A stretch of DNA of 64,000 bases from Candidatus Moraniibacteriota bacterium (GTDB lineage: Bacteria > Patescibacteriota > Minisyncoccia > Moranbacterales > UBA1568). Positions 1-58,705 of this stretch are shown piece by piece; the first letter of the stretch is position 1, and each line of letters opens with the position of its first letter. A model generated the notes under the pieces. That model saw nothing but the letters and a program-made list of their open reading frames with translations, had not been told where the DNA came from and searched no databases. The stretch covers positions 18,464 through 82,463 of the forward strand of contig JAAXXG010000004.1 in NCBI GenBank assembly GCA_013334575.1. The letters run 5' to 3'. The position numbers and the translations under genes are program-made.

Positions 1-82
1 GCCGAGGGCTCCCGGAAGGGGCATACTTGGCGATGGCACCCATTCTAGCAGGTTTTCGGAAAAAGGAAAGGCCGGTCTTTCT

Positions 83-1606
83 TCAAGAGACCCGGTGTCG
101 TCCGCGTATCTTCCGGTCGTCGGATTGCCGGCGGTCTTCTATGATCTCTTTCGCCCGCTCGCGAAGCGTATCAAGGGCTTCCTTGTCGAGTTCCTTCGAT
201 CGGCGGAGCAGCGTTTCCTTGGTATTGAGGGAGGGATCCTCGATCGTTTCCGAGAGGAGGACGTCGAGAATCGCACCGATCTTCGGTCCGGGCGCGAGTC
301 CGAGTTCATGCTGAAGGTCGTTTCCACCGATCGCGAGCATCTTTACCGATACCGGATCGTTCGAGACCTTCTCGATGACGTATTCGAGGTGTCGGAGCTT
401 GTACGGTTTCGCCTTCGGGACGCCGGAACCGAGCCGGTCCGCGATGCGGAGCTCGATAAGGTCCCGCATGTTTTCGAGTCCTACCCGTCGGATCAGCCGT
501 CGGACCGAGGATTCGGTCACCTCGTCGACGTTGTAGTAGAACATGTGCTGATCTACGAGGAGCGATGTCCGATCCGTTATATCTTTCGGGAACCGGAGCC
601 GCTCGAGGATTTTCCGGGTCATGCGCGCTCCCACGTGTTCGTGTCCGTGGAACGTGGCGCGATATCCGGAACCGCGTTTGGTGCGCGTTTTCCCGATATC
701 ATGAAACAGTGCCGCCAGCCGAACGTCGAGCCGATCCGAGCGGCAGGCGCGGAGTGACCGGATATTGTGGTCGTAGATCTCGTACCGGTGATGGAGGTTC
801 TGGGCGACGCCGACACCTTCCTCGAGTTCCGGGAGAAATTGTCGGAGCAGCCCGGTTGTCCGGAGGAGCTCCACCCCGTCAGCGGGGCTGTCCGACAGGA
901 TGATCCTCGAGAATTCGTCGCGGATCCGTTCCATCGATACGTGTGAGAGAAGTGCGGAGTGCTTTCCAATCGCGGCGAGCGTCGTCGTCTCGATCGTCCA
1001 GTCGCCGTCGGGAAGAGCGCCGTCTTTCCTGAGTTCGGAGAACAGGCGGATAGCCCGCATCATTCGTAGCGCATCTTCCCCGAAGCGCTGATCGGGATTT
1101 CCGACCGTCCGGATCGTCTTCCGTCCTATATCGTCCCTGCCGTGGAAGGGATCGACGATGTCGACTTCGCGCCGACCTTCCTTCTCGGATTTCCGGACCG
1201 ACAGGGCTATCGCGTTCATCGTGAAGTCGCGACGTGAGAGATCCTCCGTGAGGGAAGTCACGAACGTGACCCGGTCCGGACGGCGGCGGTCCGAATAGTC
1301 CGATTCTGTCCGGTAGGTCGTCACCTCGACGACGTCGTGTTCGCGTCCGGCCTTTCCGCGCGGCAGGAACGGTTCCGTCTTCACGCCGACGGTCCCGAAA
1401 TCATTCTCATAGAAACTGTCGGGAAACATCCGCAGCACGTCCTCCGGCTCCGCGTCCGTGGTGATGTCCCAATCTTTCGGCTCGCGCCCAAGGAACAGGT
1501 CCCGAACGCAGCCTCCGACGATGTGTCCCTCGTACCCGTTCGTTCCGAGCGTATCGAGGATCCCGAGAACGGGGGACGGGATGAGGGTTGAGTCGAGAAA
1601 ATCCAT
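83..1606 (-). CDS. cca: CCA-adding tRNA nucleotidyltransferase / poly(A) polymerase family enzyme with HD domain
   Basis: 507-aa ORF. N-terminal Pol-beta-like head motif GGCVRDLFLGREPKDWDITTDAEPEDV. C-terminal HD motif LFHDIGK. Confidence 0.8.
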   Translation of the reverse strand: MDFLDSTLIPSPVLGILDTLGTNGYEGHIVGGCVRDLFLGREPKDWDITTDAEPEDVLRMFPDSFYENDFGTVGVKTEPFLPRGKAGREHDVVEVTTYRTESDYSDRRRPDRVTFVTSLTEDLSRRDFTMNAIALSVRKSEKEGRREVDIVDPFHGRDDIGRKTIRTVGNPDQRFGEDALRMMRAIRLFSELRKDGALPDGDWTIETTTLAAIGKHSALLSHVSMERIRDEFSRIILSDSPADGVELLRTTGLLRQFLPELEEGVGVAQNLHHRYEIYDHNIRSLRACRSDRLDVRLAALFHDIGKTRTKRGSGYRATFHGHEHVGARMTRKILERLRFPKDITDRTSLLVDQHMFYYNVDEVTESSVRRLIRRVGLENMRDLIELRIADRLGSGVPKAKPYKLRHLEYVIEKVSNDPVSVKMLAIGGNDLQHELGLAPGPKIGAILDVLLSETIEDPSLNTKETLLRRSKELDKEALDTLRERAKEIIEDRRQSDDRKIRGRHRVS

Positions 1607-1679
1607 AGGAAAAGTTTCCCGGGACGTTTCTCGCCCGTTTCCGGGCAGAATCGCCTCCGATGATGGGACGTACTCCCGG

Positions 1680-3446
1680 TCAGAGCGTGCGACGGCGGGT
1701 TTCTTCCTTGTAGCAGGCGAGCGTATCCCCGACCTGCACCTTCTCGCTGCCCTCGAAGACGAGCCCGCATTCGTTTCCCTGGCCGACCTCGTCGACGTTC
1801 TGTTTGTTCTGCTGGAGATTGAGCAGTTTCCCGTTTCCTACGGTTTCTCCTCCGCGGCGGATCTCGATGAGCGAGTTTCGGAGGATCTTGCCCTCGCTTA
1901 CCCGGCCGCCGATGATCTGGTCGCGCTTCCCGGTCTTGAAAACCGCGAGAACCGAAAGGAGTCCGAAATCGGTGCGGACGATTTCAGGGGGGAGCAGGTC
2001 CGCAAGGCGCTCCTTCGCCGAATCGACGAGCTTGTAGATGATGTTGAAGGTCTCGATCGCGACGCCGTCCTTTTCGGCGATCCGCTTGGCGACCGGGGTC
2101 GGTTCCACGTTGAAGGCGAAGATCACCGCACCCGCTCCGGCGGCCATCTTCACGTCGGATTCCGTGACCGCTCCCACCCCGGAAGAGATCTCTTCGAGGG
2201 TTACCTCCTCGTTTCCGATCGCCCCCAGGATCTGTTCGATGGCCTCGAGCGACCCCTGGACATCGGCCTTGAGTATGTAAGGGAGGTATTTCCGGCCTTC
2301 CTCCTCTTCGGCCCTCATCTTGAGGCTCTTGCCGGAGACGACGGCCTGTGATCGGGCGCGGGCCGACGCTTTGCCGCTCTCGACCGAAACGACGTCGTTG
2401 ACCTGCGGCGCATCGTGAAATCCGTAGACGACCGCCGGGACCGACGGACCCGCGGTCTCGAGGCTTTTTCCGGCATGGTCTTCCATGCGTCGGATGCGGC
2501 CGAAGACGCCTCCGGCGACGACATCCTGACCGACCTTGAGGGTGCCGGTCCGGACAAGGACGGTCGCGACGGGCCCCTTCTGCTTGTCGAGGTGGGATTC
2601 GAGGACGACGGCAAGACCGCTTCGCTTCGGATCGGCGACGAACTCCTCGACCTCGGAGACGAGGAGGATGTTTTCGAGGAGCGAGTCGATGCCGACGTTC
2701 TGCTTGGCGCTGATCTCGGAACAGAGAATCTTTCCGCCCCACTCCTCGATGAGGATATCGTGTTCGGCGAGTTCCTGTTTCACTCGTGCCACGTTGGCGT
2801 CCGGCTTGTCGATCTTGTTGATCGCGACGATGACCGGAAGGTTCCGTTCCTTGAGGTAGGTGATGACCTCCTTGGTCTGTTTCTGGATTCCGTCGTCCGC
2901 CGCGACCACGAGAATCGCGATGTCGGCGATGGAGACACCGCGCTTTCTCATGGCCGAGAAAGCCTCGTGTCCCGGGGTGTCGATGAAGGTGATCAGCTTG
3001 CCGCGCTTCTTGACCTGGTAGGTACCGAGGTGCTGCGTGATGCCCCCCGCCTCTCCGGCCGCGACGCTCGCCTTGCGGAGAGTGTCGAGCAGCGTCGTCT
3101 TTCCGTGGTCCACGTGGCCCAGAATCGTTACGATCGGCGCTCTCGGCGAAAGCTTCTTCTCGCCCTCCTTCTCCTTGGCACAGAGTGCGAGAAGGCCTTC
3201 GAGATCGAGCGGCTTGTCGGCGGATCCTTCCTCCTCGGCAGGCGACGCCTCGAACCCGAGATCGGAAGCGATGATACTCGCGGTCTCATAGTCGACCTCC
3301 TCGTTGATCGTGGCGAGGATGCCGTTCTTCATGAGCTCGGTAATGACCTGAGCCACCGGAAGTCCCAGCCGGTCCGCGAGGTCCTTGACGGTAACGGTCG
3401 CCGGAAGGGGGACTTTCTTGACGTCGGTCTGATTCGTCTCGTTCAT
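1680..3446 (-). CDS. infB: translation initiation factor IF-2 (short form)
   Basis: 588 aa. IF2 N-terminal segment ([25 protein letters not shown]). GTPase motifs [25 protein letters not shown]. Beta-barrel C-terminal domains. Confidence 0.9.
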
Positions 3447-10592: not shown

Positions 10593-10599
10593 TCCGTTG

Positions 10600-10686
10600 A
10601 GGAAAGGGAGGGATTCGAACCCTCGAGGCCCTTGCGGGCCTGCCGCTTTTCGAGAGCGGTACCTTCAACCACTCGGTCACCTTTCC
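10600..10686 (-). tRNA. tRNA-Ser (anticodon CGA)
   Basis: On the minus strand: GGAAAGG/CCTTTCC 7-bp acceptor stem. D-arm ACC-GAGTGGTTGAA-GGT. Anticodon stem CCGCT/AGCGG with loop CTCGAAA (CGA). Long variable arm. T-arm AGGG-TTCGAAT-CCCT. Confidence 0.85.
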
Positions 10687-10740
10687 TATATGTCTAACAG
10701 TATATACTATTGTTCGAAATGATCCTCCCATTTCCGGTCA

Positions 10741-10854
10741 GGGATTCGCCCCGCATGCGCGGGGCGCCCGGCGAATGCCCGGGCGAACCCTCGAGGCCCT
10801 TGCGGGCCTGCCGCTTTTCGAGAGCGGTACCTTCAACCACTCGGTCACCTTTCC
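10741..10854 (-). repeat. tRNA-Ser-derived partial copy with a 38-nt two-hairpin insertion in the T-loop
   Basis: 71 nt identical to the 5' part of tRNA-Ser up to GGGTTCG. Then an insert (CCCGGGCATTCGCCGGGCG + CGCCCCGCGCATGCGGGGCG). Then AATCCC. The sequence after that does not restore the acceptor stem. Confidence 0.7.
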
Positions 10855-10869
10855 TATATTCAACTGACA

Positions 10870-11050: not shown

Positions 11051-11602
11051 GTGAATCCTATGATGCCTTCCATGGCGTTTGTCGATCCGAGGCAGGTCAT
11101 CGGTGCCCTTCCCGAGAGACCGAAGGGCACTATCGCGGATTTCGGGTGCGGGGCGGGATATTTTTCCGTCGAGTTCGCGAAGGCGGTCGGGGACGAGGGA
11201 AACGTGATCGCGCTCGACGTGCTTCCTTCGGCGCTCGACGCGGTAGAGGGGAGGATCAAGACCGAGGGGCTCCGCAATATCACGACGAAGCGAGTCAATC
11301 TCGAGCGAGCGAACGGTTCGGGACTCGGTCCGTCGAGTGTCGACTGGGTCATCCTCAAAGACGTGTTGTTTCAGAATGCGAAGAAGGAGATTCTGGTCGG
11401 CGAGATTTTCCGGGTGCTCCGTCCCGGCGGGCACGCGATCATCATGGAGTGGGCGCCGGTTTCCGGCGGAGGAATCGGGCCCGATCAGGAGCTCCGGGTT
11501 CCGCCGGAAGCGCTCAAGGACCTGTTACGGAAGGCCGGGTTTTCCGATGTCCGCGATCTTCAGGTTGGGGCTTTCCATTACGGTTTTCTCGTGACGAAAT
11601 AA
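11051..11602 (+). CDS. class I SAM-dependent methyltransferase
   Basis: 183 aa. Motif I DFGCGAGYFSVEFA. Motif II-like VIALDV. Post-I acidic residues. Confidence 0.8.
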   Translation: MNPMMPSMAFVDPRQVIGALPERPKGTIADFGCGAGYFSVEFAKAVGDEGNVIALDVLPSALDAVEGRIKTEGLRNITTKRVNLERANGSGLGPSSVDWVILKDVLFQNAKKEILVGEIFRVLRPGGHAIIMEWAPVSGGGIGPDQELRVPPEALKDLLRKAGFSDVRDLQVGAFHYGFLVTK

Positions 11603-11607
11603 GGCGT

Positions 11608-13026
11608 ATGAAGGGACGTTTCTCGACATGGTCAAGGATGCTTCTCGTACTTCCGCTTCTCGCATCGGCGGTCGTGCTATCGGGATGCGGAAAGGTGACG
11701 GCACCTTCCTATAAGATCGATCTGGAAGTCTGGGGTATCTTTGACGATTCTGATGCCTATCAGGGCGCATTGAGCACCTATCAGCGCATAGCGCAGTCTC
11801 ATATCGGAGCCGTCACGTACCGGAAGATGACTGCGGATACGTACCGGGAAGACCTGCTGTCCGCGTTCGCGGAGGGGCGCGGGCCCGACGTGTTCCTGAT
11901 CCGCAGTTCGTGGCTTCCGCTGTTCAGGAACCTGATCGTGGCGGCTCCGGAGTACGAGTTCAGTGAGAAGGACTTCCGGGATGCGTTCGTCGATGTCGCC
12001 GCGGACGATCTTGTAGTCGACGGACGTACCTACGGGGCACCGATTTCCGTCGATTCGCTCGGGCTCTACTACAACAAGAACCTGCTGAATGCCGCCGGCA
12101 TCGCGACGCCGCCCTTGACGTGGGACGAGTTGGAGACCGATATCAAGCTGCTTAATTCGGTCGATTATTACGGGAACATACGACAGTCGGGCGTCGCGCT
12201 GGGAACTTCGAAGAACATCAACCGCTCGACCGATATTCTCATGGCAATGGCTGAACAGCGGGGTATCAGGACGCTCCGAGACGGATTCCGTGACGACGTT
12301 GACGTGTCATCGGAACCGATGCGTCAGGCGATGTCATACTATGCCGGATTCGCGAGTATCGGTTCGGAACGGTATTCGTGGAATGCCGACCAGCATTATT
12401 CCATCGACGCCTTTTCCGAGGGGAATCTGGCGATGATGATGAACTACTCGTGGCAGGTCGACGCGATCAGGAAGAAGAACGCGAAACTCAATTTCGGGGT
12501 CGCTCCGCTTCCCCAGATCCGCGGGGCCGCACCCGCGAACTTCGCGAACTACTGGGTGTTCGTCGTCGCCAAGGACCGCAAGGCCCCTTCAACCGACCAG
12601 AAGACGAAGACGTTCCCGGACGGGAAGTACAACGATATCCGGGCTCACGAGTCCTGGCAGTTCCTGCACTATCTCGCCTTTCCGCATCCCGGGAACGCGT
12701 TCGTCCTGCGGAACGCTCTCATGACGGACTCGTCTGCTCAAGTGGAGGTCAAGGAGGATCCTGCCGCGACGATCCTTGCCCGTACCGGGCAGCCGGCGGC
12801 GCGACGGGATCTCATTACGGAACAGCGGAAAGATCCGTGGCTTGCGCCGTTCGCGTACGGAAACCTGATCGCCAAGGGGTGGCGGGTCGGTGATACGGAG
12901 AGCGCAGAGCAGATCCTTTCCGATGCGATCGAATCGGTGAACCGTGGAGAGACGGCGTTGCAGCAGGCACTTTCCGCGGCATTCTCGCAGCTCTCTCAGC
13001 AGCAGAGGAGACTTCCGGGCGATTGA
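11608..13026 (+). CDS. ABC transporter substrate-binding lipoprotein (family 1 extracellular solute-binding protein, sugar-type)
   Basis: ATG 11608. Lipoprotein signal peptide MKGRFSTWSRMLLVLPLLASAVVLSGCGK. SBP_bac_1-like blocks (GPDVFLIRSSWLP, GLYYNKNLLNAAGI...TWDEL). The 5' 460 nt of the six-frame ORF 11146-13026 overlaps the methyltransferase and is not coding. Confidence 0.8.
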   Translation: MKGRFSTWSRMLLVLPLLASAVVLSGCGKVTAPSYKIDLEVWGIFDDSDAYQGALSTYQRIAQSHIGAVTYRKMTADTYREDLLSAFAEGRGPDVFLIRSSWLPLFRNLIVAAPEYEFSEKDFRDAFVDVAADDLVVDGRTYGAPISVDSLGLYYNKNLLNAAGIATPPLTWDELETDIKLLNSVDYYGNIRQSGVALGTSKNINRSTDILMAMAEQRGIRTLRDGFRDDVDVSSEPMRQAMSYYAGFASIGSERYSWNADQHYSIDAFSEGNLAMMMNYSWQVDAIRKKNAKLNFGVAPLPQIRGAAPANFANYWVFVVAKDRKAPSTDQKTKTFPDGKYNDIRAHESWQFLHYLAFPHPGNAFVLRNALMTDSSAQVEVKEDPAATILARTGQPAARRDLITEQRKDPWLAPFAYGNLIAKGWRVGDTESAEQILSDAIESVNRGETALQQALSAAFSQLSQQQRRLPGD

Positions 13027-13038: not shown

Positions 13039-13326
13039 ATGGATTTTCTGAAGGAGATCGGCACGCCGGTCGCTCGGGCGGCCGGTGTCATCGAGGATGC
13101 GACTCCGGTCGCGACCATTCTCGCGAATGCGCTCTCGCTCGTCCTCGGTCTGGCGGGTGCGTTCGCCATGCTTTCGTTCGCGGTCGCCGGTGTCGCGTAC
13201 GCGCTTGCGGGCGGAGACGAATCACGGATGCGGCAGGCAAAGAATGCCATGGTCTATTCGGTCATCGGGGCGCTCGTCTGCGTGGCGTCGCTCGTCGTTG
13301 TCCGTACCGTGGCCGGCGTGCTATAA
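13039..13326 (+). CDS. VirB2/TrbC-like (T4SS pilin-like) small membrane protein
   Basis: 95 aa. Two hydrophobic helices flank the conserved motif VAYALAGGDESRMRQAKNAMVYSVIGALV. Confidence 0.55.
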   Translation: MDFLKEIGTPVARAAGVIEDATPVATILANALSLVLGLAGAFAMLSFAVAGVAYALAGGDESRMRQAKNAMVYSVIGALVCVASLVVVRTVAGVL

Positions 13327-13365
13327 TCCGACGGTACGACATCCAAACGGAAAGGAGGTGAACGC

Positions 13366-13755
13366 ATGAAATCGATGAAGCAGATCGGATACGGCGTTCT
13401 CGCCGCGGCGCTTTCGCTTCCGTCGGCGGCGCTCGCACAGTTCGGGCAGGTGCCGAGCGGCAGCAATTACAACAGTGTCGCATCGACCGGAGGACTTACG
13501 ACCGATAACTTCGGGGTCATCCTCATCCGCGTCATGAACTGGGTGCTGGGTATCCTCGGCATCGGAGCGATCATCTCCTTCGTTATCGCGGGTATCATGT
13601 ACTTGACGGCCGGCGGAGACGAGGGGAAGACCGAGAAGGCGAAGGGTATGATGACCTATGCCATTATCGCCGTCATCGTGGCGCTGGTCGGCTACGTGGT
13701 GATCAACACGGTGGTCGGATTGCTCGGAAGCAACAAGGTGTCGGGAAGCTATTGA
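13366..13755 (+). CDS. VirB2/TrbC-like (T4SS pilin-like) secreted small membrane protein
   Basis: 129 aa. Signal peptide (MKSMKQIGYGVLAAALSLPSAALA). Motif IMYLTAGGDEGKTEKAKGMMTYAIIAVIVALVGYVV. Confidence 0.6.
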   Translation: MKSMKQIGYGVLAAALSLPSAALAQFGQVPSGSNYNSVASTGGLTTDNFGVILIRVMNWVLGILGIGAIISFVIAGIMYLTAGGDEGKTEKAKGMMTYAIIAVIVALVGYVVINTVVGLLGSNKVSGSY

Positions 13756-13849
13756 CGCGTCCCGCAGGAACGAGACAGCCCCGCTTTTGCGGGGTTGTCT
13801 TTTTTCGTACCCGACGATATGATGAGGGAAAGAAACAACCTTCCCGCTT

Positions 13850-14290
13850 ATGCGAACGTACGCATCCCGCTCCCTTCTCGTTCTCGGTCTTCTTCTTCTC
13901 GTTCCGACGGCCGATGTTTCCGCGGCAGCGACGTGTACCAACGGCGAGCTCATAAACGGCGTCTGTGTCCCGTCGGCGTCCTCGACGGGGCTTCCGGATA
14001 CCGCCGCTGATACGGTCGTCATCAATATCATGAACTGGCTGCTCGGGATGCTCGGTTTGCTGGCCATGATCATGTTCGTCGTCTCCGGAATCATGTATCT
14101 GACCGCGGGAGGGGACGAGAAGCGGACGGAGAGCGCGAAGAACAATATCAAGTATGCGGTCATCGGGGTCGCCGTCGCGTTGCTCGGGTACGCCGTCGTT
14201 TTCACCGTACAGCAGATAGTGACCGGCGGCGCTTCGGGGACGTCGTACGGCTCGTCATCGACGACCGGAGGGAGCGGGGTGAAGTATTGA
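13850..14290 (+). CDS. VirB2/TrbC-like (T4SS pilin-like) secreted small membrane protein
   Basis: 146 aa. Signal peptide. Motif IMYLTAGGDEKRTESAKNNIKYAVIGVAVALLGYAVV. Gly/Ser/Thr-rich C-terminal tail. Confidence 0.6.
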   Translation: MRTYASRSLLVLGLLLLVPTADVSAAATCTNGELINGVCVPSASSTGLPDTAADTVVINIMNWLLGMLGLLAMIMFVVSGIMYLTAGGDEKRTESAKNNIKYAVIGVAVALLGYAVVFTVQQIVTGGASGTSYGSSSTTGGSGVKY

Positions 14291-14331
14291 AATCCTTGTC
14301 GGGAGGTTCTGAATACAAGAATGCACGTCTT

Positions 14332-15519
14332 ATGAAAAAAGCGGGAAGGGAAGTCATTATTTTTTTGGTAAGTGCGTCTTTGTTTGTAATTTCCATTCCT
14401 CAGGTTTCCGCTGCTACGCTTTGGAAATTTACAGGCACCAAGACGACCAGCGTGACACAATCCGGTTTCGCGACGCCAGAGGCGTGCAGCTCCTACATGG
14501 TCAGCAACGGTTACGCTGGAACGTGTAAATATGACAGTGCGGCTGGATCGTATCGGTTTACCGGAACCAAGACCGAGAGCGCAACGTACGACGGATTTGC
14601 TTCTTTGGCAGCCTGCGATTCCTATGCGACAAGCAATAATCTTAATGGAACCTGCGCCTCCTATACGACATCGTCAGGATCGGCAGGCACCTGTACCGGG
14701 AATACGACGAAGGTTGTTGGATCGTGTCGGGCGACCTGCGTGAGTTCTGCGGAAAAGGCGGACGGCGTGTGCACTGCCGAAAGCGGGGCGTCGTATAGCG
14801 GACTAAATTGCTGCGTTGCTACTTCGGCGGGTCAGACGTCCGGAACGTGTACCGGAACAAGCGGTCGGTCGGGGAGCTGTTATTCCGTCGGAAACTGTCC
14901 AAGCGGCACGGTTTCCGACGGTTCGTGCACGAGCGGCGATTCTTGTTGTACCGCGTCGTCGAGTGCGCAGACGACTTCAGCCAGCGGCAGCGTTTCGACC
15001 ACGGCCACGTTCACGAATCCGCTCAATTTCTCGACCGTTCAGGAGGCGACGGGAGTGTTTCTTTCCGCGTTCCAGGGGATCATCGTCATGCTCGCGCTCA
15101 TCTTCCTGGTGCTCGGCGGGATATTCTATATCACCTCCGGCGGCGATTCCAAGAGGATAGACAAGGCCAAGGCGATGATCACCGCGGCCATGATCGGACT
15201 CGCTATCGGAGTCCTGGCGCCGTCCCTCCTTAAGGAGATCGGCAACATACTCGGCTGGGGCGGTGCGCAGGTTCCGTCGGAAGTAAGCAGTGCGAAATCG
15301 GCGGTCGAGGTCGCGCAGAACGTTCTGAATTTCCTGCTTTCCATCGTCGGTCTGCTCGCCATGATCATGCTTGTCATCGGCGGGCTCATGTTCTTCGCGG
15401 CTGCCGGCGACGAGAAACGGGCCGAAACGGCCAAGGGTATCGTCAAGTACTCGGTCATGGGTCTTTCGCTTGCCGTCGTCTCACTCATCATCGTGCGGAC
15501 CATCGCGACGTTGTTGTAG
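14332..15519 (+). CDS. secreted Cys/Thr-rich protein with two tandem VirB2/TrbC-like pilin domains
   Basis: Signal peptide. A ~40-aa ectodomain unit is repeated twice ((W/R)FTGTKT-S-T--GFA---AC-SY--SN). A Cys-rich stretch. Two pilin motifs: IFYITSGGDSKRIDKAKAMITAAMIGLAIGVL and LMFFAAAGDEKRAETAKGIVKYSVMGLSLAVV. An alternative TTG start at 14287 overlaps the previous gene. Confidence 0.55.
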   Translation: MKKAGREVIIFLVSASLFVISIPQVSAATLWKFTGTKTTSVTQSGFATPEACSSYMVSNGYAGTCKYDSAAGSYRFTGTKTESATYDGFASLAACDSYATSNNLNGTCASYTTSSGSAGTCTGNTTKVVGSCRATCVSSAEKADGVCTAESGASYSGLNCCVATSAGQTSGTCTGTSGRSGSCYSVGNCPSGTVSDGSCTSGDSCCTASSSAQTTSASGSVSTTATFTNPLNFSTVQEATGVFLSAFQGIIVMLALIFLVLGGIFYITSGGDSKRIDKAKAMITAAMIGLAIGVLAPSLLKEIGNILGWGGAQVPSEVSSAKSAVEVAQNVLNFLLSIVGLLAMIMLVIGGLMFFAAAGDEKRAETAKGIVKYSVMGLSLAVVSLIIVRTIATLL

Positions 15520-15605: not shown

Positions 15606-16685
15606 CTACCAGGCTAACCACGGCCGCCAGAGACGAAATGTGACGACGGTGCGTTCAATCGACTTATCGCCAGTGCGGAACTGGCTTTCTGTCGGCTCGC
15701 ACAGGTTGAACGTGACATGAGCTCCTTTGTCACCGGGCGAGATGATTATTTTTCCTCCTTTCTTCCTGATGATTTGGTCTTGGTCAGAGAACAGCGTTTC
15801 GGAGACGCCATTCAGCATGATGACGTACGGAGGACTGTCTGGATAATTCCAGACGGCGCTCGTGTCTCCCCGGTCGGTCCGTTTCAGGTCGTAGTACTCG
15901 TCGACCCCGCCGTCCCTGCGGATGACATGGAGACGCTTTTCTCCTACGACCTTGAAACGCAGTTCACCTTCCACAGGCATCGGAAGGAATGTGCGCTGCG
16001 AGATGTCGCTCGGGACGTGAAACTCGACGTCGATTCCGACGGTTCGTGCCTTCAGCTCGAACGGGATTCCCGGAGCGAACGCGAGGATGAGGCCGTACAC
16101 GAGCTCCGCGATACCGGCATAGATCGCGATCTTGACGAACCACTTTCCTTTGCCGGGCTCGGCGATATCCTTCGCACCGAACGTGCATAAGGCTGCGAGC
16201 ACGATGGCAATCGCCACCGGGTTTCGCAGCTGGAATATCGTCAGCACCGCTCCGAAGATGCCGATCCCCATGTATACGTAGGCCCACAGACGAATCATCT
16301 TCATCACCTCCTCGCCACCCGCCTCCGCAAACTTCTTGAGTTCGAAATCCGGAAACTTCTCCTTCGTGAAGAGGGCGGTCAACAGTTGAGGGATTCGGAC
16401 TGACGGCATTCCGTTCAAACCGGCGCCGGCGGCAAACGACGCTGAAAGCGGTTCAGCACGCAGAACGAGGAAGGTTCCCGCGAATGCGAACACGATTTGC
16501 AAAGCCGCTACCGCGATGCTCCATCCGAGCGAGCTGAACAGCATCATAAGCGAGAGAAGTACCGCGGCCGGGGCGAGTATCGCGATCCAGGCATTTTTCA
16601 GGAGGACGTTCGCTTTCGCGAGCCAGTCTTCTCCCACGTTCTGACTATGTCGTAAAAAGAATCTCATTATTTTTTTCCTCCCCAC
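15606..16685 (-). CDS. hypothetical polytopic membrane protein with C-terminal soluble domain
   Basis: 359 aa. Multiple N-terminal TM helices. No recognisable family. Confidence 0.45.
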   Translation of the reverse strand: MGRKKIMRFFLRHSQNVGEDWLAKANVLLKNAWIAILAPAAVLLSLMMLFSSLGWSIAVAALQIVFAFAGTFLVLRAEPLSASFAAGAGLNGMPSVRIPQLLTALFTKEKFPDFELKKFAEAGGEEVMKMIRLWAYVYMGIGIFGAVLTIFQLRNPVAIAIVLAALCTFGAKDIAEPGKGKWFVKIAIYAGIAELVYGLILAFAPGIPFELKARTVGIDVEFHVPSDISQRTFLPMPVEGELRFKVVGEKRLHVIRRDGGVDEYYDLKRTDRGDTSAVWNYPDSPPYVIMLNGVSETLFSDQDQIIRKKGGKIIISPGDKGAHVTFNLCEPTESQFRTGDKSIERTVVTFRLWRPWLAW

Positions 16686-16715
16686 CGGATACGAGCACCC
16701 GGTGATTATTTGTTG

Positions 16716-17714
16716 TTAGTGTTGTGAACAATACTGGGCGAGGGCGACGACGGCGACACAGAAGGCAAGCGATACCCATCCGGCAATCCTCCACCGCAGG
16801 GGAAGCTTCTCAGACGCTTTCGGGTGATTCTCGACCTTTTCGCTCATCGCCGACTTGAGGCGGAGCTCCAGCTCTTTCTCGTAGTAGGCTTTGCGTGCCG
16901 CACAGCTTTCCTGCTTCTTCTGACTGGCGTTCGGGGCGCATATGTCCGGGACGTTCGGGTATGCGTCGTCCGTCGATTTTATGGCCGATCGCCTTACCCG
17001 TTCGTACTCGTCCGAACCGAGGACCCATTGCGCCTCGAGCATCGTCGAGAGAAGCGGGAGGTTCGACTTCCGGACTGCGTCCAGGATCTCTTCGAATCGC
17101 TTCTCGAACGATTCCGTCGAGATGAATCCGCTCGCCTCCAGTTCGTCGATGACTGTGTCGATGGCTTTTTCGCGGGTCAGGTTGTCCTTTCTTATCTTTT
17201 CATTGATCCGTACGGCGATATCTTCAAGATATTTCACCCTGATATCGTCCGGCGTATCCTCGAGCGGCGATCTCGTCGTTTCCTTGATGGTGACCGTGGC
17301 TGGTTCAGAACCATTCTTCGATCCTTTCCCCTTTGCGGACTGGGACGGTTGATTCAGTTCTTTGACCGTCTCAGTCGCGTTCTTTTTGAAGAAGATGTTC
17401 GTGGCAAGGGATGCCACCCGCTTTCCTTTGTCGGCCTCGTCCAATTTTTTCAAGCGAACGATGAACGCGCGGACGAGCTCCTTGTCTTCTTTGGATCTCA
17501 TGAGGGCGACAACGAAGTCCAGAGCGGCGGTGTCCTGACTGGTGAGTGCTGCCAGCAGCATGTTTTTCAGCCATTCCAGAAAGCCGTTCGTGGAATCCTT
17601 TCCGACGACAGGCATCGAGTGATTTCCGGGCCTCGACTCCTTAAAGAGTGTCAGGAATGTTACAACGAGAGTCGTGAGATCCGTGAGGCGTTCTCCAAAT
17701 GGGTAAGACTTCAT
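16716..17714 (-). CDS. hypothetical protein with C-terminal TM anchor
   Basis: Start refined to ATG 17714 (MKSYPFGERL), preceded by a GGAGGG SD. Lys/Glu-rich. C-terminal hydrophobic helix (IAGWVSLAFCVAVVALA). Confidence 0.45.
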   Translation of the reverse strand: MKSYPFGERLTDLTTLVVTFLTLFKESRPGNHSMPVVGKDSTNGFLEWLKNMLLAALTSQDTAALDFVVALMRSKEDKELVRAFIVRLKKLDEADKGKRVASLATNIFFKKNATETVKELNQPSQSAKGKGSKNGSEPATVTIKETTRSPLEDTPDDIRVKYLEDIAVRINEKIRKDNLTREKAIDTVIDELEASGFISTESFEKRFEEILDAVRKSNLPLLSTMLEAQWVLGSDEYERVRRSAIKSTDDAYPNVPDICAPNASQKKQESCAARKAYYEKELELRLKSAMSEKVENHPKASEKLPLRWRIAGWVSLAFCVAVVALAQYCSQH

Positions 17715-18046
17715 GATTATGTCCCTCCGTTTAGTGTCGTGTTTGATGCAGAAAAAATTGTTCAGGTGCCCGTTACGGTTTGGTTGGCCTTTCGGGCACG
17801 GATCCGTAACGGGGTATTCTAGCATAAAAAAACAAAAAAGTCAATTATACGGAGCAGCGAGTGGTCGGACGGAGAGGGAGCTTAAATAATGGCTTTTTAT
17901 AGGCATTTTCATGATTTCTTTCGGAAAGTACGAGTCGGTGTCAGTCCGGGTTTCCGGACCTGCCGTTCAGGGGTTCGCACTCTCGTTTTTAACGTCTGTC
18001 CGACAGCGTGTTCCGAGGTGGTTTTAAGAAGGGTCGTTTTTTTCTT

Positions 18047-43503: not shown

Positions 43504-43606
43504 GGGTGTCGGTTTCGGTGTCGGTTTTATCACATCATAGCAGACGCGGTCGACGACGTTGAGAGAGGGCGATATTTCGTGTATACTATTGATAAGAAAC
43601 AAACCT

Positions 43607-43954
43607 ATGCGTATCGACATCGTCCCGGAAGGGAACAAGACCAAGCGCGAGAGTCAGCCGGAGAACGATTACGGCCTTCCGTTCATTTTCGATACCGTGT
43701 TCGGTGGCGTGAAGCATCTTTTGGAAAGCGTCGTCTCGAGCGTCGCCGACATGGTCGACGAGGCGCTCGGCATGGCGTTGCGGCGGGCCTTCGCCGTCAT
43801 TCTGGGAGTGTTCGGTATCTGGTTCCTGTTCAGCGGATTCGCGAAGCTGCTCGACTACCTGTACGGGGCTCCCGGCGTCGGCGAGGTGATCGTCGGGGCG
43901 CTGGTATTCATGTCGGCGATCATCGTGTCGGCGTTCGCCCGTCGATCCCGATAG
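43607..43954 (+). CDS. small hypothetical membrane protein
   Basis: Two hydrophobic helices (AFAVILGVFGIWFLFSGF, VIVGALVFMSAIIVSAFA). Start choice uncertain (ORF from 43559). Confidence 0.35.
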   Translation: MRIDIVPEGNKTKRESQPENDYGLPFIFDTVFGGVKHLLESVVSSVADMVDEALGMALRRAFAVILGVFGIWFLFSGFAKLLDYLYGAPGVGEVIVGALVFMSAIIVSAFARRSR

Positions 43955-56974: not shown

Positions 56975-57028
56975 GTAGATTGGATCTGTGGCCGATATCC
57001 GGCCGTTGACGTGATGTAAAACAACGGA

Positions 57029-58705
57029 ATGAAAATACAGGAAAACAAGTGGCGTGTCAAGGGTCTTCGAAAAGCCCTGTCGGAATTTTCGATGGGATGG
57101 TACGCTTTTCCTATGACCCAGGATCAGGCCCTCTCCATTCTCAGAACCGGTGCGTCGGTCTTCCTTACGGGGGAGGCCGGTTCCGGCAAGACACATGTCG
57201 TGAACCGGTATGCGGCGTACCTGCGTTCCCGCGGGATCCCGTACGCGATGACCGCCTCGACCGGGATCGCGGCGACGCATATCCGCGGTACCACCATCCA
57301 TTCGTGGAGCGGCGTCGGAGCGAACCGTGACATGAGCGACGAAGGGTTCGAGCAGCTTGTGAAGAACCGGAGGGCCGTACGGCGGATCCGTGAGGCCCGC
57401 GTTCTCGTGATCGACGAGGTGTCGATGCTCGACGCCCGGGTCCTCTCGCTCGTGGAGCGGATGTGTCGCCGAGCGAAGGGATCGACGTCGCTTCCCTTCG
57501 GCGGACTGCAGGTCGTGCTCGTCGGCGACTTCTTCCAGCTGCCGCCGGTCTCGCGCGAGGGCGCCTCGCGGTTCGCGTTCGAGTCGTCCGCCTGGGATGC
57601 GCTTCGTCCGGTCGTCTGCTACCTTCACGAGCAGCACCGGCAGGAGGACCCGGCGTTCCTTTCGGTCCTTTCGGCGATCCGCCGCGACGAGGTCGGCGAG
57701 GAACACCTCGCGCTCGTGCGGGGGCGGATTCTTGGGCGGGACGACGTGCCGGACGAGGATCTGCCAGTACTCTTCTCGCATAACGCGGACGTGGACGGTC
57801 TCAACGCCGCGGCACTCGACCGACTGCCCGGCAGGTCGCGCGTCTTCCTCATGGCCAAGCGCGGACCGGACAAGCCGCTCGAAGCGCTCGTGCGCGGGTG
57901 TCTTTCGCCCGAGCGGCTCGAGCTCAAGGAGGGCGCATCGGTCATGTTCACCAAGAACAATCCGGACGAAGGGTACGTGAACGGGACGCTCGGCACCGTC
58001 ATCGGGTTCGATGCGGCGAAGAAGTTTCCGATCGTCCGGACGCGAGACGGCGAGGCAGTGACGGTCGCTCCTGCGGAGTGGTTGGTCGAGGAGGGCGAGG
58101 AGATCGTCGCGCGAGTGCGTCAGATCCCGCTTCGGCTCGCGTGGTCGATCACGATCCACAAGAGTCAGGGTGTCTCGCTCGATGCGGCGGTCATGGACCT
58201 CTCGCGCGTCTTCGAATACGGGCAGGGGTATGTCGCGCTCTCGCGGGTGCGCACGCTTGCCGGGCTCTCGCTCGTCGGACTTTCCGACCGGGCGTTCGCG
58301 ACGCATCCCTCGGTACGCGAGAAGGACCGCCTGTTCCGCGAGGAAAGCGAGCGTGCCGAACGCGCGTACGGTTCGCGAAGCGAGGAGGAGATACGGAAGG
58401 ACGAGGAGGCGTTCCTGGTCCTGTGCGGGGTGTCCGGGAAAAAAGAAGGCGGTCCGCACGGCCGCGCGAAGGGAACCGCGAAGAAGGGAAATGGAAAACG
58501 GAAAGCCGCCGGTGCGGGCGGCGGGTTCGACGAGATACGGAAGAAGCATCCCAAGGCGTATATGCCGTGGAAGGAAGACGAGGACAAATGGCTCCGAAGG
58601 CTTTTCCAAGGCGGCGCCGATGTGAAATCCATCGCCGAAGCGCTCGGCCGACAGCCGGGGAGTATCCGCGCGCGGATGAGGAAGCTCGGGCTGGAGGGAG
58701 ACTGA
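57029..58705 (+). CDS. Pif1-like SF1B DNA helicase with C-terminal HTH-like tail
   Basis: Walker A FLTGEAGSGKTH. VLVIDEVSML. GDFFQLPPV. Motif V-VI AWSITIHKSQGVSLD...YVALSRVR. C-terminal KWLRRLFQGGADVKSIAEALGRQPGSIRARMRKLGLEGD. Possible internal start at 57092. Confidence 0.85.
   Translation: MKIQENKWRVKGLRKALSEFSMGWYAFPMTQDQALSILRTGASVFLTGEAGSGKTHVVNRYAAYLRSRGIPYAMTASTGIAATHIRGTTIHSWSGVGANRDMSDEGFEQLVKNRRAVRRIREARVLVIDEVSMLDARVLSLVERMCRRAKGSTSLPFGGLQVVLVGDFFQLPPVSREGASRFAFESSAWDALRPVVCYLHEQHRQEDPAFLSVLSAIRRDEVGEEHLALVRGRILGRDDVPDEDLPVLFSHNADVDGLNAAALDRLPGRSRVFLMAKRGPDKPLEALVRGCLSPERLELKEGASVMFTKNNPDEGYVNGTLGTVIGFDAAKKFPIVRTRDGEAVTVAPAEWLVEEGEEIVARVRQIPLRLAWSITIHKSQGVSLDAAVMDLSRVFEYGQGYVALSRVRTLAGLSLVGLSDRAFATHPSVREKDRLFREESERAERAYGSRSEEEIRKDEEAFLVLCGVSGKKEGGPHGRAKGTAKKGNGKRKAAGAGGGFDEIRKKHPKAYMPWKEDEDKWLRRLFQGGADVKSIAEALGRQPGSIRARMRKLGLEGD
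58642..58694 (+). repeat. repeat R1 (palindrome-cored), in frame as the 3' end of the helicase gene
   Basis: gctcggccgacagccggggagTATCCGCGCGCGGATGaggaagctcgggctgg. Confidence 0.7.

What the first reader, a model, noticed from the sequence alone, without database searches (positions are those of the whole stretch)
13039..15519. Four-gene tandem cluster of VirB2/TrbC-like (T4SS pilin-like) proteins downstream of an ABC solute-binding lipoprotein
Four consecutive plus-strand genes encode small proteins sharing the motif [hydrophobic helix]-(Y/F)(L/I)T(A/S)GGD(E/S)-x3-(E/K)-AK-[hydrophobic helix]. Three carry cleavable signal peptides. This is the signature of the conjugative-pilin-like family that is abundant in CPR genomes. 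No T4SS ATPases (VirB4/VirD4) are in the window.

The tandem diversification, with each copy having a different tail, suggests surface-exposed variable structures: adhesion to a host cell, or phage-receptor variation.
Basis: partly seen in the sequence, partly recalled or inferred. Interest (0 to 1): 0.55.

Follow-up and report, generated by a model that had tools for sequence, protein, structure and literature searches.

The report
Pilin gene array of a Patescibacterial T4SS
Four neighbouring genes in a Candidatus Moranbacteria chromosome encode five copies of the small VirB2-like pilin domain that ultrasmall Patescibacteria pair with their type IV secretion machine, a gene array already described in 2023-2025 papers, so the finding is correct but mostly not new.

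Summary
Four + strand genes (13039-15519) all pass Pfam PF18895 T4SS_pilin. The loop motif occurs five times, because the last gene carries two pilin domains; 0.02 are expected by chance.

The window matches a Ca. Moranbacteria MAG (GCA_013336155.1). A PrgI/VirB3-TrsD-VirB4 cluster lies on the same strand, 4.7 kb outside the window and about 17.7 kb from the array. In 14 of 80 related species the order is MT-SBP-pilin-di-pilin-PrgI-TrsD-VirB4 without a break, so the array belongs to the T4SS.

Tandem VirB2-like arrays in Patescibacteria are published (Wang 2023; Quinonero-Coronel 2025, whose dataset includes this assembly).

- Paralogs are 26-51% identical, but orthologs at the same position are 57-86% identical.
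- dN/dS is below 0.4.
- Two co-occurring strains differ by only three synonymous SNPs.

Things I did not find described in the papers read:
- The terminal gene belongs to a "di-pilin" subfamily: signal peptide, variable Cys-rich ectodomain with beta-defensin-like Cys spacing, and two pilin domains.
- An orphan SBP lipoprotein travels with the pilins.
- A strain-hypervariable two-gene cassette abuts the array.

The parts
11060..11602 (+). Class I SAM-methyltransferase gene (MT, 180 aa). It is the first gene of the conserved MT-SBP-pilin block.
   Evidence: Pfam Methyltransf_31/25/11. An ortholog lies upstream of the array in 56 of 80 related loci.
11608..13026 (+). Orphan solute-binding lipoprotein (SBP_bac_1, 472 aa, lipobox VLSGC). 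It ends 12 nt before g1.
   Evidence: Pfam SBP_bac_1 at 80.5 bits. Gene call of 472 aa. An ortholog lies directly upstream of the pilins in 58 of 80 loci, including those where VirB4 follows the pilins. None of the window proteins I scanned is an ABC permease or ATPase.
13039..13326 (+). g1: 95-aa pilin with no leader (or an atypically short one). The pilin domain is aa 22-90, with two TM helices and the loop AGGDESRMRQAK.
   Evidence: PF18895 at 52 bits. TM helices at 34-52 and 70-88. Orthologs are 57-60% identical and share the N-terminal motif AAGVIEDA(T/V)P.
13298..13327 (+). Promoter-like site (TTGTCC-18-TATAAT with TG) just upstream of g2.
   Evidence: Consensus scan only. g2 also has the best Shine-Dalgarno sequence, GGAGGTG, 6 nt upstream.
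13366..13755 (+). g2: 129-aa prepilin and candidate major subunit. Leader aa 1-24 (ALA|QF), pilin domain aa 46-119, C-terminal aromatic residue.
   Evidence: PF18895 at 39.8 bits. Signal peptide and TM helices. Orthologs are 69-81% identical. Strong SD, followed by a conserved terminator-like hairpin.
13772..13801 (+). Intrinsic-terminator-like hairpin (13-bp stem, 8 GC pairs, T-run) between g2 and g3.
   Evidence: A hairpin sits at the same position after the g2 orthologs in L006 (9932-9959) and L008 (9458-9486). In L008 the sequence is different.
13850..14290 (+). g3: 146-aa prepilin. Leader aa 1-25 (VSA|AA). Mature N-terminus ATCTxGxLxNGVCVPS with two Cys, modelled as a beta-hairpin. Pilin domain aa ~54-126. 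Gly/Ser/Thr tail ending in Tyr.
   Evidence: PF18895 at 43.3 bits; PF04956 TrbC at 16.7 bits, below threshold. Alignment A2. AF2 model with pLDDT 72.5: strands 33-40, helices 53-85 and 90-126.
14332..15519 (+). g4: 395-aa di-pilin. Leader aa 1-27. Ectodomain aa 28-~230, made of two beta-beta-alpha-beta repeats (aa 30-116) and two six-Cys modules. Conserved NPLxF motif. Pilin domain a at aa ~238-310 and pilin domain b at aa ~326-395.
   Evidence: PF18895 at 73.1 bits with 2 matched stretches. Own HMM scores 92.8 and 93.7 bits. AF2 model with pLDDT 81.3. All 120 listed homologues have exactly two pilin domains. The ATG start at 14332 is used on Logan contigs.
14692..14949 (+). Two six-cysteine modules ending in CC within the g4 ectodomain (aa 121-161 and 173-206). 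The Cys spacing resembles beta-defensins.
   Evidence: Regex and module census. Pfam Defensin_beta scores only 12.6 bits, E 0.14, for module 2. The di-pilin homologue P0105 passes the Defensin_beta_2 and Defensin_beta gathering scores. AF2 models these as beta modules with pLDDT 76-92.
15606..16667 (-). d1: ~353-aa membrane protein with 5 N-terminal TM helices and a ~150-aa C-terminal domain. It is the first gene of a strain-hypervariable cassette. I do not claim it belongs to the pilin system.
   Evidence: TM helices. No Pfam, NCBIfam, PHROG, PADLOC or PDB hit. 49% identical to the allele in the NCBI contig, while the flanks are >=99.8% identical.
16716..17714 (-). d2: ~332-aa helical protein with a C-terminal TM anchor. 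It is the second gene of the hypervariable cassette.
   Evidence: TM helix. No family hits. 29% identical to the NCBI-contig allele. Proteins of the same architecture are found in this position in most related loci.

Best explanation
The four genes encode the pilin set of the chromosomal Patescibacteria-type type IV secretion system of a Candidatus Moranbacteria bacterium. The set comprises five VirB2/TrbC-like helical-hairpin domains.

Shown here:
- Family membership.
- Two-TM hairpins joined by a short charged loop.
- Sec-type leaders on g2-g4.
- Conserved linkage to PrgI/VirB3, TrsD and VirB4.
- Purifying selection.
- Positional orthology of each paralog.

Inferred:
- The prepilins are inserted by Sec/YidC, and leaders are removed by signal peptidase I. 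This leaves hairpins with both termini outside and the GGD(E/S)-x-AK loop in the cytoplasm.
- The VirB4 ATPase, with PrgI/VirB3 and TrsD, extracts the hairpins from the membrane. It stacks them into a pilus or an envelope-spanning tube that contacts the host cell on which the epibiont depends.
- The paralogs are specialised subunits, not interchangeable variants.
- g2 is the likely major subunit. It has the best ribosome-binding site, a promoter-like site, and a conserved terminator-like hairpin after it.
- g1 and g3 are minor or initiator subunits.
- g4 is a di-pilin equivalent to two fused subunits. It displays a disulfide-rich, species-variable ectodomain, probably at the tip or base, as the host-contact or adaptor element.
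For: Family membership:
- PF18895 is above threshold for all four genes.
- NCBIfam's Mbov_0395 pilin-like conjugal transfer model gives E 1e-6 to 6e-9, below its cutoff.
- Homologues of g3 and g4 pass PF04956 TrbC/VirB2 on the same residues: P0141 52.6, P0021 40.8, P0066 37.8, P0105 33.9, P0075 30.1, P0115 30.0 bits, against a cutoff of 27.9.

Structure:
- Helical-hairpin AF2 models.
- Leader and TM layout.

Linkage to the T4SS:
- VirB4 (P-loop_TraG 95.7 bits), PrgI (34.4 bits) and a TraC-like/TrsD protein lie on the same contig and strand, about 17.7 kb upstream.
- The same spacing is seen in a relative with 72-75% identical proteins.
- In 14 of 80 related species the order MT>SBP>pilin>di-pilin>PrgI>TrsD>VirB4 is contiguous.
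- The assembly is listed as VirB4-positive in the Patescibacteria T4SS survey.

Specialised paralogs:
- Paralogs are 26-51% identical; orthologs are 57-86% identical.
- dN/dS is 0.07-0.36.

g2 expression signals.

Literature:
- The VirB2-like array is essential in S. epibionticum (PMC10633639; PMC12857230).
- 441 arrays of 2-11 pilins were found in 383 assemblies (PMC12102498).
- T4SS pilins are among the most expressed secreted proteins of Paceibacteria (PMC10936435).
Against: - No filament has ever been shown for a Patescibacterial T4SS, and monoderm conjugation systems generally lack pili (PMC12102498).
- The window proteins themselves do not reach the TrbC/VirB2 threshold (16.7 bits).
- A profile search against PDB sequences finds nothing.
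- hhalign against A. tumefaciens VirB2 gives only 3% probability.
- Foldseek gives no significant match, because a helical hairpin is too simple a fold.
- In this genome eleven unrelated protein genes and a tRNA gene separate the array from VirB4.
- g1 lacks a recognisable leader.
- The roles assigned to g1-g4 rest only on expression signals and architecture.
Confidence: 0.72

Rival explanations
1. The proteins are VirB2-derived but do not polymerise into a pilus. They stay in the cytoplasmic membrane. There they act either as part of the T4SS translocon or stator in a monoderm envelope, or simply as two- or four-helix anchors that display ectodomains (g3's disulfide hairpin, g4's Cys-rich domain) on the cell surface.
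For: - Monoderm MPF_FATA systems, from which the Patescibacterial VirB4 derives, work without pili (PMC12102498).
- g4-type proteins carry ectodomains of 23-535 aa in front of an invariant four-helix block. This looks like an anchor-plus-cargo design.
- No structural match to solved pilus subunits was obtained.
Against: - Multiple specialised paralogs, one with high-expression signals, is the pattern of filament systems with major and minor subunits.
- The family is homologous to filament-forming TrbC/VirB2.
- A simple anchor would not need 4-8 conserved paralogs in nearly every species.
Confidence: 0.2
2. The array is a diversification device: interchangeable, rapidly evolving surface variants used for antigenic, phage-receptor or host-range variation, as proposed for virB2 paralog arrays in Bartonella and Anaplasma.
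For: - Paralogs differ in their mature N-termini and C-terminal tails.
- Array size varies from 2 to 8 genes among species.
- The g4 ectodomain is much less conserved than its pilin domains: 40% against 71% identity.
- The literature raises this possibility (PMC12102498).
Against: - Each paralog has a positional ortholog at 57-86% identity.
- dN/dS is 0.07-0.36, close to neighbouring housekeeping genes at 0.09-0.17.
- No shared DNA repeats, inverted repeats or tandem repeats that could drive recombination or switching.
- Two co-occurring strains that have swapped the neighbouring cassette differ by only 3 synonymous SNPs in the array.
Confidence: 0.06
3. The genes encode unrelated small membrane proteins, such as holin-like or bacteriocin-immunity-type proteins, and the GGD loop motif is incidental.
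For: Small two-TM proteins with charged loops are common. Several weak Pfam hits to unrelated membrane families appear below threshold.
Against: - Five independent above-threshold PF18895 matches.
- Transitive above-threshold matches to TrbC/VirB2.
- Contiguity with PrgI-TrsD-VirB4 in 14 species.
- No PHROG hit apart from one marginal g3 match to an unknown-function family (E 0.0089).
- No phage or toxin genes among the flanking genes scanned.
Confidence: 0.02

Closest known systems
VirB2-like pilin arrays of Patescibacterial T4SSs (S. epibionticum ML1 SEML1_0006-0019 cluster; survey of Quinonero-Coronel et al. 2025)
   Same: - Tandem, sequence-divergent PF18895/PF04956-type pilins in a chromosomal, relaxase-less, MPF_FATA-like T4SS context.
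- Paralog identity is 26-51% here, against a mean of 25% and a maximum of 54% in the survey.
- The source assembly is in that survey's dataset and is listed as VirB4-positive.
   Different: - Here the array is split from the PrgI-TrsD-VirB4 block by eleven housekeeping protein genes and a tRNA gene (about 17.7 kb).
- The array always ends in a two-domain di-pilin with a Cys-rich ectodomain.
- It is preceded by a conserved MT-SBP pair.
- None of these features is mentioned in the papers read.
- Essentiality is shown only for Saccharibacteria, not for Moranbacteria.
TrbC/VirB2 conjugative pilins of Gram-negative T4SSs (A. tumefaciens VirB2, RP4 TrbC; Pfam PF04956)
   Same: - Cleavable leader, two hydrophobic helices and a short polar loop.
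- Genetic association with VirB3/VirB4.
- Close homologues of g3 and g4 pass the PF04956 threshold.
   Different: - The window proteins score only 16.7 bits on PF04956.
- There is no PDB sequence or fold match.
- The host is a monoderm with no outer-membrane core complex.
- I saw no VirB5, and no TraF-type cyclase.
- There are several paralogs instead of one major pilin.
- A fused two-domain form exists.
virB2 paralog arrays of Bartonella and Anaplasma phagocytophilum T4SSs
   Same: Several tandem, divergent virB2 copies in a host-interaction (non-conjugative) T4SS.
   Different: Those arrays are interpreted as antigenic or host-range variation. Here the copies are individually conserved and under purifying selection.
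Pilin-like conjugal transfer proteins of monoderm ICEs (NCBIfam NF045849, Mbov_0395 family of Mycoplasma ICEs)
   Same: This is the best NCBIfam match for all four genes (E 2e-6 to 6e-9). It covers the same two-helix core in a wall-less or monoderm T4SS setting.
   Different: Scores of 27-35 bits are below the equivalog cutoff of 40. Those proteins are single-copy and sit on mobile elements.
Archaeal Ced/Ted conjugation-like pili (VirB2-like subunits, e.g. PDB 8dfu)
   Same: VirB2-like helical-hairpin pilins used by organisms without an outer membrane, in DNA-import systems rather than classical conjugation. 8dfu appears among the fold hits.
   Different: The fold hit is not significant (rank 27, E 5.8). 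No sequence relationship was tested.

Membership tests
Pfam PF18895 T4SS_pilin | Whole-protein HMM score at or above the gathering threshold (26.6 bits), covering most of the 71-position model. | tested here: met
   g1 52.0, g2 39.8, g3 43.3, g4 73.1 bits. Model positions 2/3/6 to 63-71 are covered. g4 has two matched stretches.
Pfam PF18895 T4SS_pilin | Two hydrophobic helices joined by a short polar loop. | tested here: met
   Hydropathy segments. AF2 helices 53-85 and 90-126 in g3; 236-268/273-306 and 324-356/361-394 in g4.
TrbC/VirB2 conjugative pilin (Pfam PF04956) | Direct HMM match of the window proteins above the gathering threshold (27.9 bits). | tested here: not met
   The best is g3 at 16.7 bits, E 0.0084. 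The others give no hit.
TrbC/VirB2 conjugative pilin (Pfam PF04956) | Homology by transitivity: close homologues match PF04956 on the same residues as PF18895. | tested here: met
   P0141 52.6, P0021 40.8, P0066 37.8, P0105 33.9, P0075 30.1, P0115 30.0 bits. These proteins hit g3 or g4 at E 4e-15 to 1e-49.
TrbC/VirB2 conjugative pilin (Pfam PF04956) | Cleavable N-terminal leader on the prepilin. | tested here: inconclusive
   g2, g3 and g4 have n-h-c regions with AxA-type sites by inspection. g1 has none. No dedicated predictor such as SignalP was available.
TrbC/VirB2 conjugative pilin (Pfam PF04956) | Structural similarity to solved pilus subunits (T-pilus, F-pilus and others). | tested here: inconclusive
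   - Foldseek against PDB: no hit with E<=0.001.
- PDB sequence profile search: 0 hits.
- hhalign against VirB2 of 8cue: probability 3%, helix 1 aligned only.
TrbC/VirB2 conjugative pilin (Pfam PF04956) | Encoded with the T4SS ATPase VirB4 and VirB3. | tested here: met
   - VirB4, a TrsD-like protein and PrgI/VirB3 lie about 17.7 kb upstream on the same strand.
- They are directly adjacent to the pilins in 14 of 80 related species.
TrbC/VirB2 conjugative pilin (Pfam PF04956) | Polymerises, with phospholipid, into an extracellular conjugative pilus. | not testable with these tools
   This needs microscopy or biochemistry. It has not been shown for any Patescibacterium (PMC12857230).
Patescibacterial VirB2 array (sensu Quinonero-Coronel et al. 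2025) | Two or more pilin genes in tandem (or separated by one non-pilin gene), detected with PF18895/PF04956 at i-E<0.001 and >50% profile coverage. | tested here: met
   Four consecutive genes, with E 7e-14 to 2e-20 and coverage >80% of the model.
Patescibacterial VirB2 array (sensu Quinonero-Coronel et al. 2025) | The genome encodes a VirB4, and the array counts as 'near' it if within 20 CDS. | tested here: met
   The assembly is listed as 'Presence of VirB4: Yes'. g1 is the 16th CDS after virB4 on the contig. Whether this VirB4 belongs to the Patescibacteria clade was not tested.
Patescibacterial VirB2 array (sensu Quinonero-Coronel et al. 2025) | High divergence among paralogs (reported mean 25%, maximum 54% identity). 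| tested here: met
   26-51% identity among the five pilin cores.
Type IV pilus (T4P) pilins, considered and rejected | Class III signal peptide with the G|F/M-x-x-x-E prepilin peptidase site and a single N-terminal hydrophobic helix. | tested here: not met
   None of the four sequences has this motif. All have two C-terminal TM helices (sequences). No T4P Pfam family was hit.
Beta-defensin-like domain (Pfam PF00711/PF13841), for the g4 ectodomain modules | HMM score above the gathering threshold, plus a six-Cys framework C-x6-C-x4-C-x9-C-x6-CC. | tested here: not met
   - Window g4 module 2 scores 12.6 bits, E 0.14, against a cutoff of 21.
- Its spacing C-x9-C-x5-C-x9-C-x5-CC is similar.
- The homologue P0105 passes both models, at 24.4 and 22.6 bits.
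- These scores are largely Cys-driven, so homology is unproven.

The most novel reading that the evidence does not exclude
The last gene of the array defines an undescribed 'di-pilin' class. It consists of two fused VirB2-like subunits carrying a disulfide-rich, species-variable ectodomain built from six-cysteine modules with beta-defensin-like spacing. The class comprises about 400 clusters at 50% identity and is found almost only in Moranbacteria.

In this reading the di-pilin caps or nucleates the T4SS filament and is the element that touches, and possibly perturbs, the host envelope. It would thus be the missing adhesin of the Patescibacterial T4SS. The orphan SBP lipoprotein and the neighbouring strain-hypervariable two-gene cassette would be accessory parts of the same host-interaction locus.
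Probability: 0.15. Interest if true: 0.65.

Novelty: new member of a known kind. Interest (0 to 1): 0.33.

Why it matters
The T4SS of Patescibacteria is essential for epibiotic growth in the one species tested, and its function is unknown. VirB2-like pilins in a monoderm are its oddest feature. This locus adds nothing new at the level of kind.

The comparative picture does give concrete handles:
- The paralogs are old, position-specific and conserved. This argues for a multi-subunit structure rather than antigenic variation.
- One subunit (g2) has major-pilin expression signals.
- A fused di-pilin with a variable Cys-rich ectodomain is a ready candidate for the host-contact element. The 2025 survey looked for PrgB-type adhesins and found none.
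- In one subclade the pilins, an SBP lipoprotein and PrgI-TrsD-VirB4 are contiguous.

These points are testable by cryo-ET, proteomics or AF-multimer modelling in any Paceibacteria co-culture.

Tried and rejected
Searches that gave nothing useful:
- Foldseek of the g3 and g4 AF2 models against PDB gave no significant hits. The best E-values were 1.8 and 0.088, all generic helical proteins.
- A profile of the g3 family against PDB sequences gave 0 hits.
- hhalign of the g3 family against A. tumefaciens VirB2 gave 3% probability.
- PHROGs gave nothing beyond one marginal g3 match to an unknown-function family (E 0.0089), and PADLOC gave nothing for the flanking genes d1 and d2, so a phage or defence reading has no support.

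Readings rejected:
- Type IV pilus pilins: there is no class III leader.
- Recombination or switching: there are no DNA-level repeats, inverted repeats or tandem repeats among the paralogs.
- Extra pilin genes elsewhere in the window or in the upstream T4SS block: my own HMM on six-frame ORFs found none.
- VirD4, VirB6 or VirB4 inside the window: none among the proteins scanned.
- Beta-defensin membership of the g4 modules: below threshold.

Dead ends on the flanking genes d1 and d2:
- Exact-product look-ups with three candidate start sites found nothing on record.
- A 43-mer from d1 is absent from JGI metagenome contigs.
- d1 and d2 have no PDB sequence relatives.

Table S3 of the 2025 survey, which lists per-assembly components, was cut off in the stored file. 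I therefore could not confirm that this particular array was counted there.

Full report
**1. What is in the sequence**

Between 13039 and 15519 there are four consecutive + strand ORFs with coding-type GC3 (0.66-0.80, against 0.43-0.56 at position 2):
- g1: 13039-13326, 95 aa.
- g2: 13366-13755, 129 aa.
- g3: 13850-14290, 146 aa.
- g4: 14287-15519, 410 aa from a TTG.

An independent assembly calls g4 from the ATG at 14332 (395 aa). That version begins with a typical leader, MKKAGREVIIFLVSASLFVISIPQVSA|A.

All four exceed the gathering score of Pfam PF18895 "T4SS_pilin", with 52.0, 39.8, 43.3 and 73.1 bits against 26.6. g4 matches twice.

The loop motif [AS][GA]GD[ES]-x5-6-AK occurs five times in the six-frame translation of the 64-kb window. 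All five are in these genes, with 0.02 expected in shuffles. A profile built from the pilin cores finds no other copy in the window.

By inspection g2, g3 and g4 carry Sec-type leaders with AxA-like sites, and g1 does not. The gene just upstream (11608-13026) is an SBP_bac_1 lipoprotein with lipobox VLSGC.

**2. Source and setting**

g3 is encoded, residue for residue, on NCBI contig JAAXUE010000001.1 (138.7 kb) of GCA_013336155.1, and on two Logan contigs from SRR11449211 and SRR11449212. The T4SS survey of Quinonero-Coronel et al. 2025 lists that assembly as Candidatus Moranbacteria, GTDB class Paceibacteria, 1.14 Mb, "Presence of VirB4: Yes".

The window is ordinary chromosome. It carries IF2, nusA, ppa, tig, clpP, iPGM, RNase Y, ThrRS, rpoB and rpoC.

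No T4SS ATPase is in the window. Fetching the DNA beyond position 1 showed that the same contig carries, on the same strand, the block 416 aa - PrgI/VirB3 (34.4 bits) - TraC-like/TrsD (229 aa) - VirB4 (822 aa; P-loop_TraG 95.7 bits) - 157 aa - 220 aa - 934 aa. The 157-aa protein has 2 TM helices. The 220-aa protein has 5 TM helices. The 934-aa protein has a signal peptide, a large ectodomain and a C-terminal anchor. VirB4 ends about 4.7 kb before window position 1 and about 17.7 kb before g1, and g1 is the 16th CDS after it.

A Logan contig that is 100% identical to window 1-2840 carries the same block.

**3. Is the array part of that T4SS?**

Comparative data say yes.

A relative with 72-75% identical proteins has the same layout: LysM/CHAP hydrolase - 773 aa - 460 aa - PrgI - TrsD - VirB4 - 197 - 220 - 921 aa - CCA - IF2 ... 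MT - SBP - four pilins - two minus-strand genes - nusA.

A scan of one genome per GTDB species with the g4-family profile found 169 species with a relative. Of the 80 best loci, nearly all are Moranbacteria/Moraniibacteriota.

In these loci the pilin genes are always tandem and co-oriented, and the array ends with a two-domain gene. Arrays have 1-8 genes, with a mode of 5; the single-gene cases are mostly at contig ends.

The MT and SBP orthologs precede the pilins in 56 and 58 of the 80 loci. In 14 loci the order is MT > SBP > pilin > di-pilin > PrgI > TrsD > VirB4, contiguous on one strand. In that subclade the pilins are physically inside the T4SS gene cluster. In the window's clade the same two blocks are separated by a rearrangement.

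**4. Relation to VirB2/TrbC**

- Directly, only g3 touches PF04956, at 16.7 bits and E 0.008.
- NCBIfam's closest model for all four genes is the Mbov_0395 pilin-like conjugal transfer family, at E 2e-6 to 6e-9 and below its cutoff.
- Close homologues of g3 and g4 (E 4e-15 to 1e-49) pass PF04956 on the very residues that match PF18895: 52.6, 40.8, 37.8, 33.9, 30.1 and 30.0 bits against 27.9. Homology to TrbC/VirB2 therefore holds by transitivity.
- AF2 gives helical hairpins. The g3 model has pLDDT 72.5 and the g4 model 81.3.
- Fold and PDB-sequence comparisons are uninformative.

The family is very large. There are 43,721 representatives at 50% identity with E<=1e-3 to the g4 profile.

**5. 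Are the copies "variants"?**

The five cores are 26-51% identical to each other. Each gene has a positional ortholog in related genomes at 57-86% identity.

dN/dS by Nei-Gojobori is as follows (dS is above 1, so the values are approximate):

| Gene | dN/dS |
|---|---|
| g1 | 0.31-0.36 |
| g2 | 0.21-0.23 |
| g3 | 0.18-0.31 |
| pilin half of g4 | 0.07-0.23 |
| MT, SBP, nusA, tig | 0.09-0.17 |

No DNA repeats link the paralogs. The window and the NCBI contig represent two co-occurring strains, and their arrays differ at three synonymous sites only.

This is the signature of old, specialised subunits, not of a variation device. What does vary is the g4 ectodomain: 40% identity against 71% for its pilin half between species, and 23-535 aa in length among homologues.

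**6. Division of labour (inferred)**

g2 has the best Shine-Dalgarno sequence (GGAGGTG) and a promoter-like site just upstream. A 13-bp GC-rich hairpin with a T-run follows it. That hairpin recurs at the same place in two relatives, once with a different sequence. This suggests that g2 is the abundant major subunit.

g3 orthologs share a mature N-terminus, ATCTxGxLMNGVCVPS, with two Cys, modelled as a beta-hairpin. g2 and g3 both end in an aromatic residue after a Gly/Ser/Thr tail.

g4 is a di-pilin. All 120 listed homologues have exactly two pilin domains after an N-terminal region that is Cys-rich (median 10 Cys). 405 representative clusters reach E<=1e-30.

The g4 ectodomain contains two beta-beta-alpha-beta repeats (pLDDT above 90) and two six-Cys modules ending in CC. 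The module spacing resembles beta-defensins. One homologue passes the Pfam beta-defensin thresholds, but the window's module does not (12.6 bits), and such scores are dominated by the cysteines. I treat this as a lead only.

**7. Mechanism proposed**

- The prepilins are inserted by Sec, and signal peptidase I removes the leaders.
- The resulting hairpins pool in the membrane, with the GGD...AK loop (one invariant Lys) on the cytoplasmic side.
- VirB4, with PrgI/VirB3 and TrsD, extracts and stacks them into a filament or tube through the thin envelope. g2 forms the body, g1 and g3 are minor subunits, and g4 is a two-protomer adaptor displaying a disulfide-rich domain.
- The structure would mediate contact or exchange with the host cell.

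The first part (family, topology features, linkage, selection) is shown. Polymerisation and the subunit roles are inferred.

The main rival is that the proteins stay in the membrane as translocon parts or anchors. No Patescibacterial T4SS filament has been seen yet (PMC12857230).

**8. What is known**

- Wang et al. [quoted passage not shown]
- Quinonero-Coronel et al. 2025 searched 3,035 genomes, including this one, with PF18895 and PF04956. They reported 441 arrays of 2-11 pilin genes in 383 assemblies, with 25% mean identity, and raised the host-range idea.
- A 2025 FEMS review highlights the arrays.
- Kuroda et al. 2024 found T4SS pilins among the most highly expressed secreted proteins of Paceibacteria.

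The finding is therefore a correct recognition of a published kind. In the papers read I did not find mention of the fused di-pilin, its Cys-rich ectodomain, the MT-SBP companion genes or the neighbouring hypervariable cassette. The 2025 survey states that no PrgB-type adhesins were detected.

**9. A surprise next door**

The window is not identical to the deposited contig. The flanks are 99.8-99.97% identical. Positions 15644-17754, which hold the two minus-strand genes after g4, have essentially no DNA similarity. The encoded proteins are 49% (d1) and 29% (d2) identical between the two versions.

A Logan contig from SRR11449211 carries the window's version and breaks 19 nt into it. The SRR11449212 contig carries the other version. 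In two related genomes compared directly (L006, L008), the positional counterparts of d1 and d2 are only 24-38% identical to the window's versions.

In 42 related loci with nusA downstream, the gap of about 2.7 kb between the di-pilin and nusA usually holds two minus-strand genes of the same architecture. One has multiple N-terminal TM helices and the other has a C-terminal TM anchor. Their sequence is barely recognisable: tblastn finds d1 in 5 and d2 in 2 of the 80 loci.

Neither gene hits any family library. Their function and any link to the pilins remain unexplained.

**10. Verdict**

- Observation: confirmed.
- Interpretation: right on identity, incomplete on context, and not supported on "variation".
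- Novelty: a new member of a known kind, with a few sub-features that may be undescribed.
- Interest: modest.

Noticed in passing
window 15644-17754 (genes d1 15606-16667 and d2 16716-17714, minus strand): A strain-hypervariable two-gene cassette lies directly after the pilin array.
- The window and NCBI contig JAAXUE010000001.1 are >=99.8% identical on both sides.
- Across the cassette there is almost no DNA similarity. d1 is 49% and d2 29% identical at protein level between the two versions.
- Both alleles occur in sister samples (SRR11449211 and SRR11449212).
- Related species keep the architecture (multi-TM protein plus tail-anchored protein) but not the sequence.
- There are no family hits.

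   Followed up: partly
window 14332-15519 (g4), especially 14692-14949; homologues P0024-P0143: g4 belongs to a 'di-pilin' subfamily: leader, variable Cys-rich ectodomain (23-535 aa) and exactly two pilin domains.
- There are about 405 clusters at 50% identity, almost all from Moranbacteria.
- The ectodomains are built from six-Cys modules ending in CC, with beta-defensin-like spacing.
- One homologue (P0105) passes the Pfam beta-defensin thresholds. The window's own module does not.

   Followed up: partly
locus L004 12241-21524 (about 0.6-9.9 kb beyond window position 1); also L005, L010: The T4SS core lies just outside the window, on the same strand as the pilins. The block runs 416 aa, PrgI/VirB3, TrsD-like, VirB4, a 2-TM protein of 157 aa, a 5-TM protein of 220 aa, and a 934-aa anchored surface protein. 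A relative also has a LysM/CHAP hydrolase upstream.
   Followed up: yes
window 11060-13026 (MT and SBP): A methyltransferase and an orphan SBP_bac_1 lipoprotein precede the pilin array in 56-58 of 80 related species, with no ABC permease or ATPase seen beside them. This includes the 14 species where PrgI-TrsD-VirB4 follow directly. The SBP stop is 12 nt from the g1 start. This may be a functional link to the T4SS rather than to an ABC importer.
   Followed up: partly
window 13772-13801; L006 9932-9959; L008 9458-9486: A terminator-like hairpin directly after g2 is conserved in position across three genomes, once with a different sequence. Together with a strong SD and a promoter-like site before g2, it suggests separate, high expression of g2.
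   Followed up: partly
window 13366-14290 (g2, g3) and alignment A2: g2 and g3 orthologs nearly all end in an aromatic residue (Y/F) after a Gly/Ser/Thr-rich tail. g3 orthologs also keep a two-Cys N-terminal hairpin, ATCTxGxLMNGVCVPS. The significance is unknown; it might be a processing or packing signal.
   Followed up: no
window 10616-10691 and 10784-10859 (tRNA-Ser at 10599-10686, minus strand): A perfect 76-nt direct repeat duplicates most of tRNA-Ser(CGA) 168 nt away, and a third partial copy starts at 10950. The NCBI contig differs here by about 100 nt, so the repeat number varies between strains or assemblies.
   Followed up: partly
window 40831-43644 (minus strand): A 937-aa protein with four lamin-tail domains (185 bits) and a PKD domain. 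This is a typical large CPR surface protein.
   Followed up: no
window ~57000-64000: This region holds a Pif1-like helicase (57029-58705), a Bro-N domain protein (58791-59639) and a ClpP-like SDH protease (61654-62742). GC falls to 0.50-0.53 at 60-64 kb. It may be a mobile-element or phage-derived patch.
   Followed up: no
loci L020, L022, L024, L031 and about 25 others (record titles): Many TPA metagenome-assembled genomes labelled 'uncultured Bdellovibrionales bacterium' carry the Moranbacteria-type SBP - pilin array - nusA locus. Their taxonomic labels are probably wrong.
   Followed up: no
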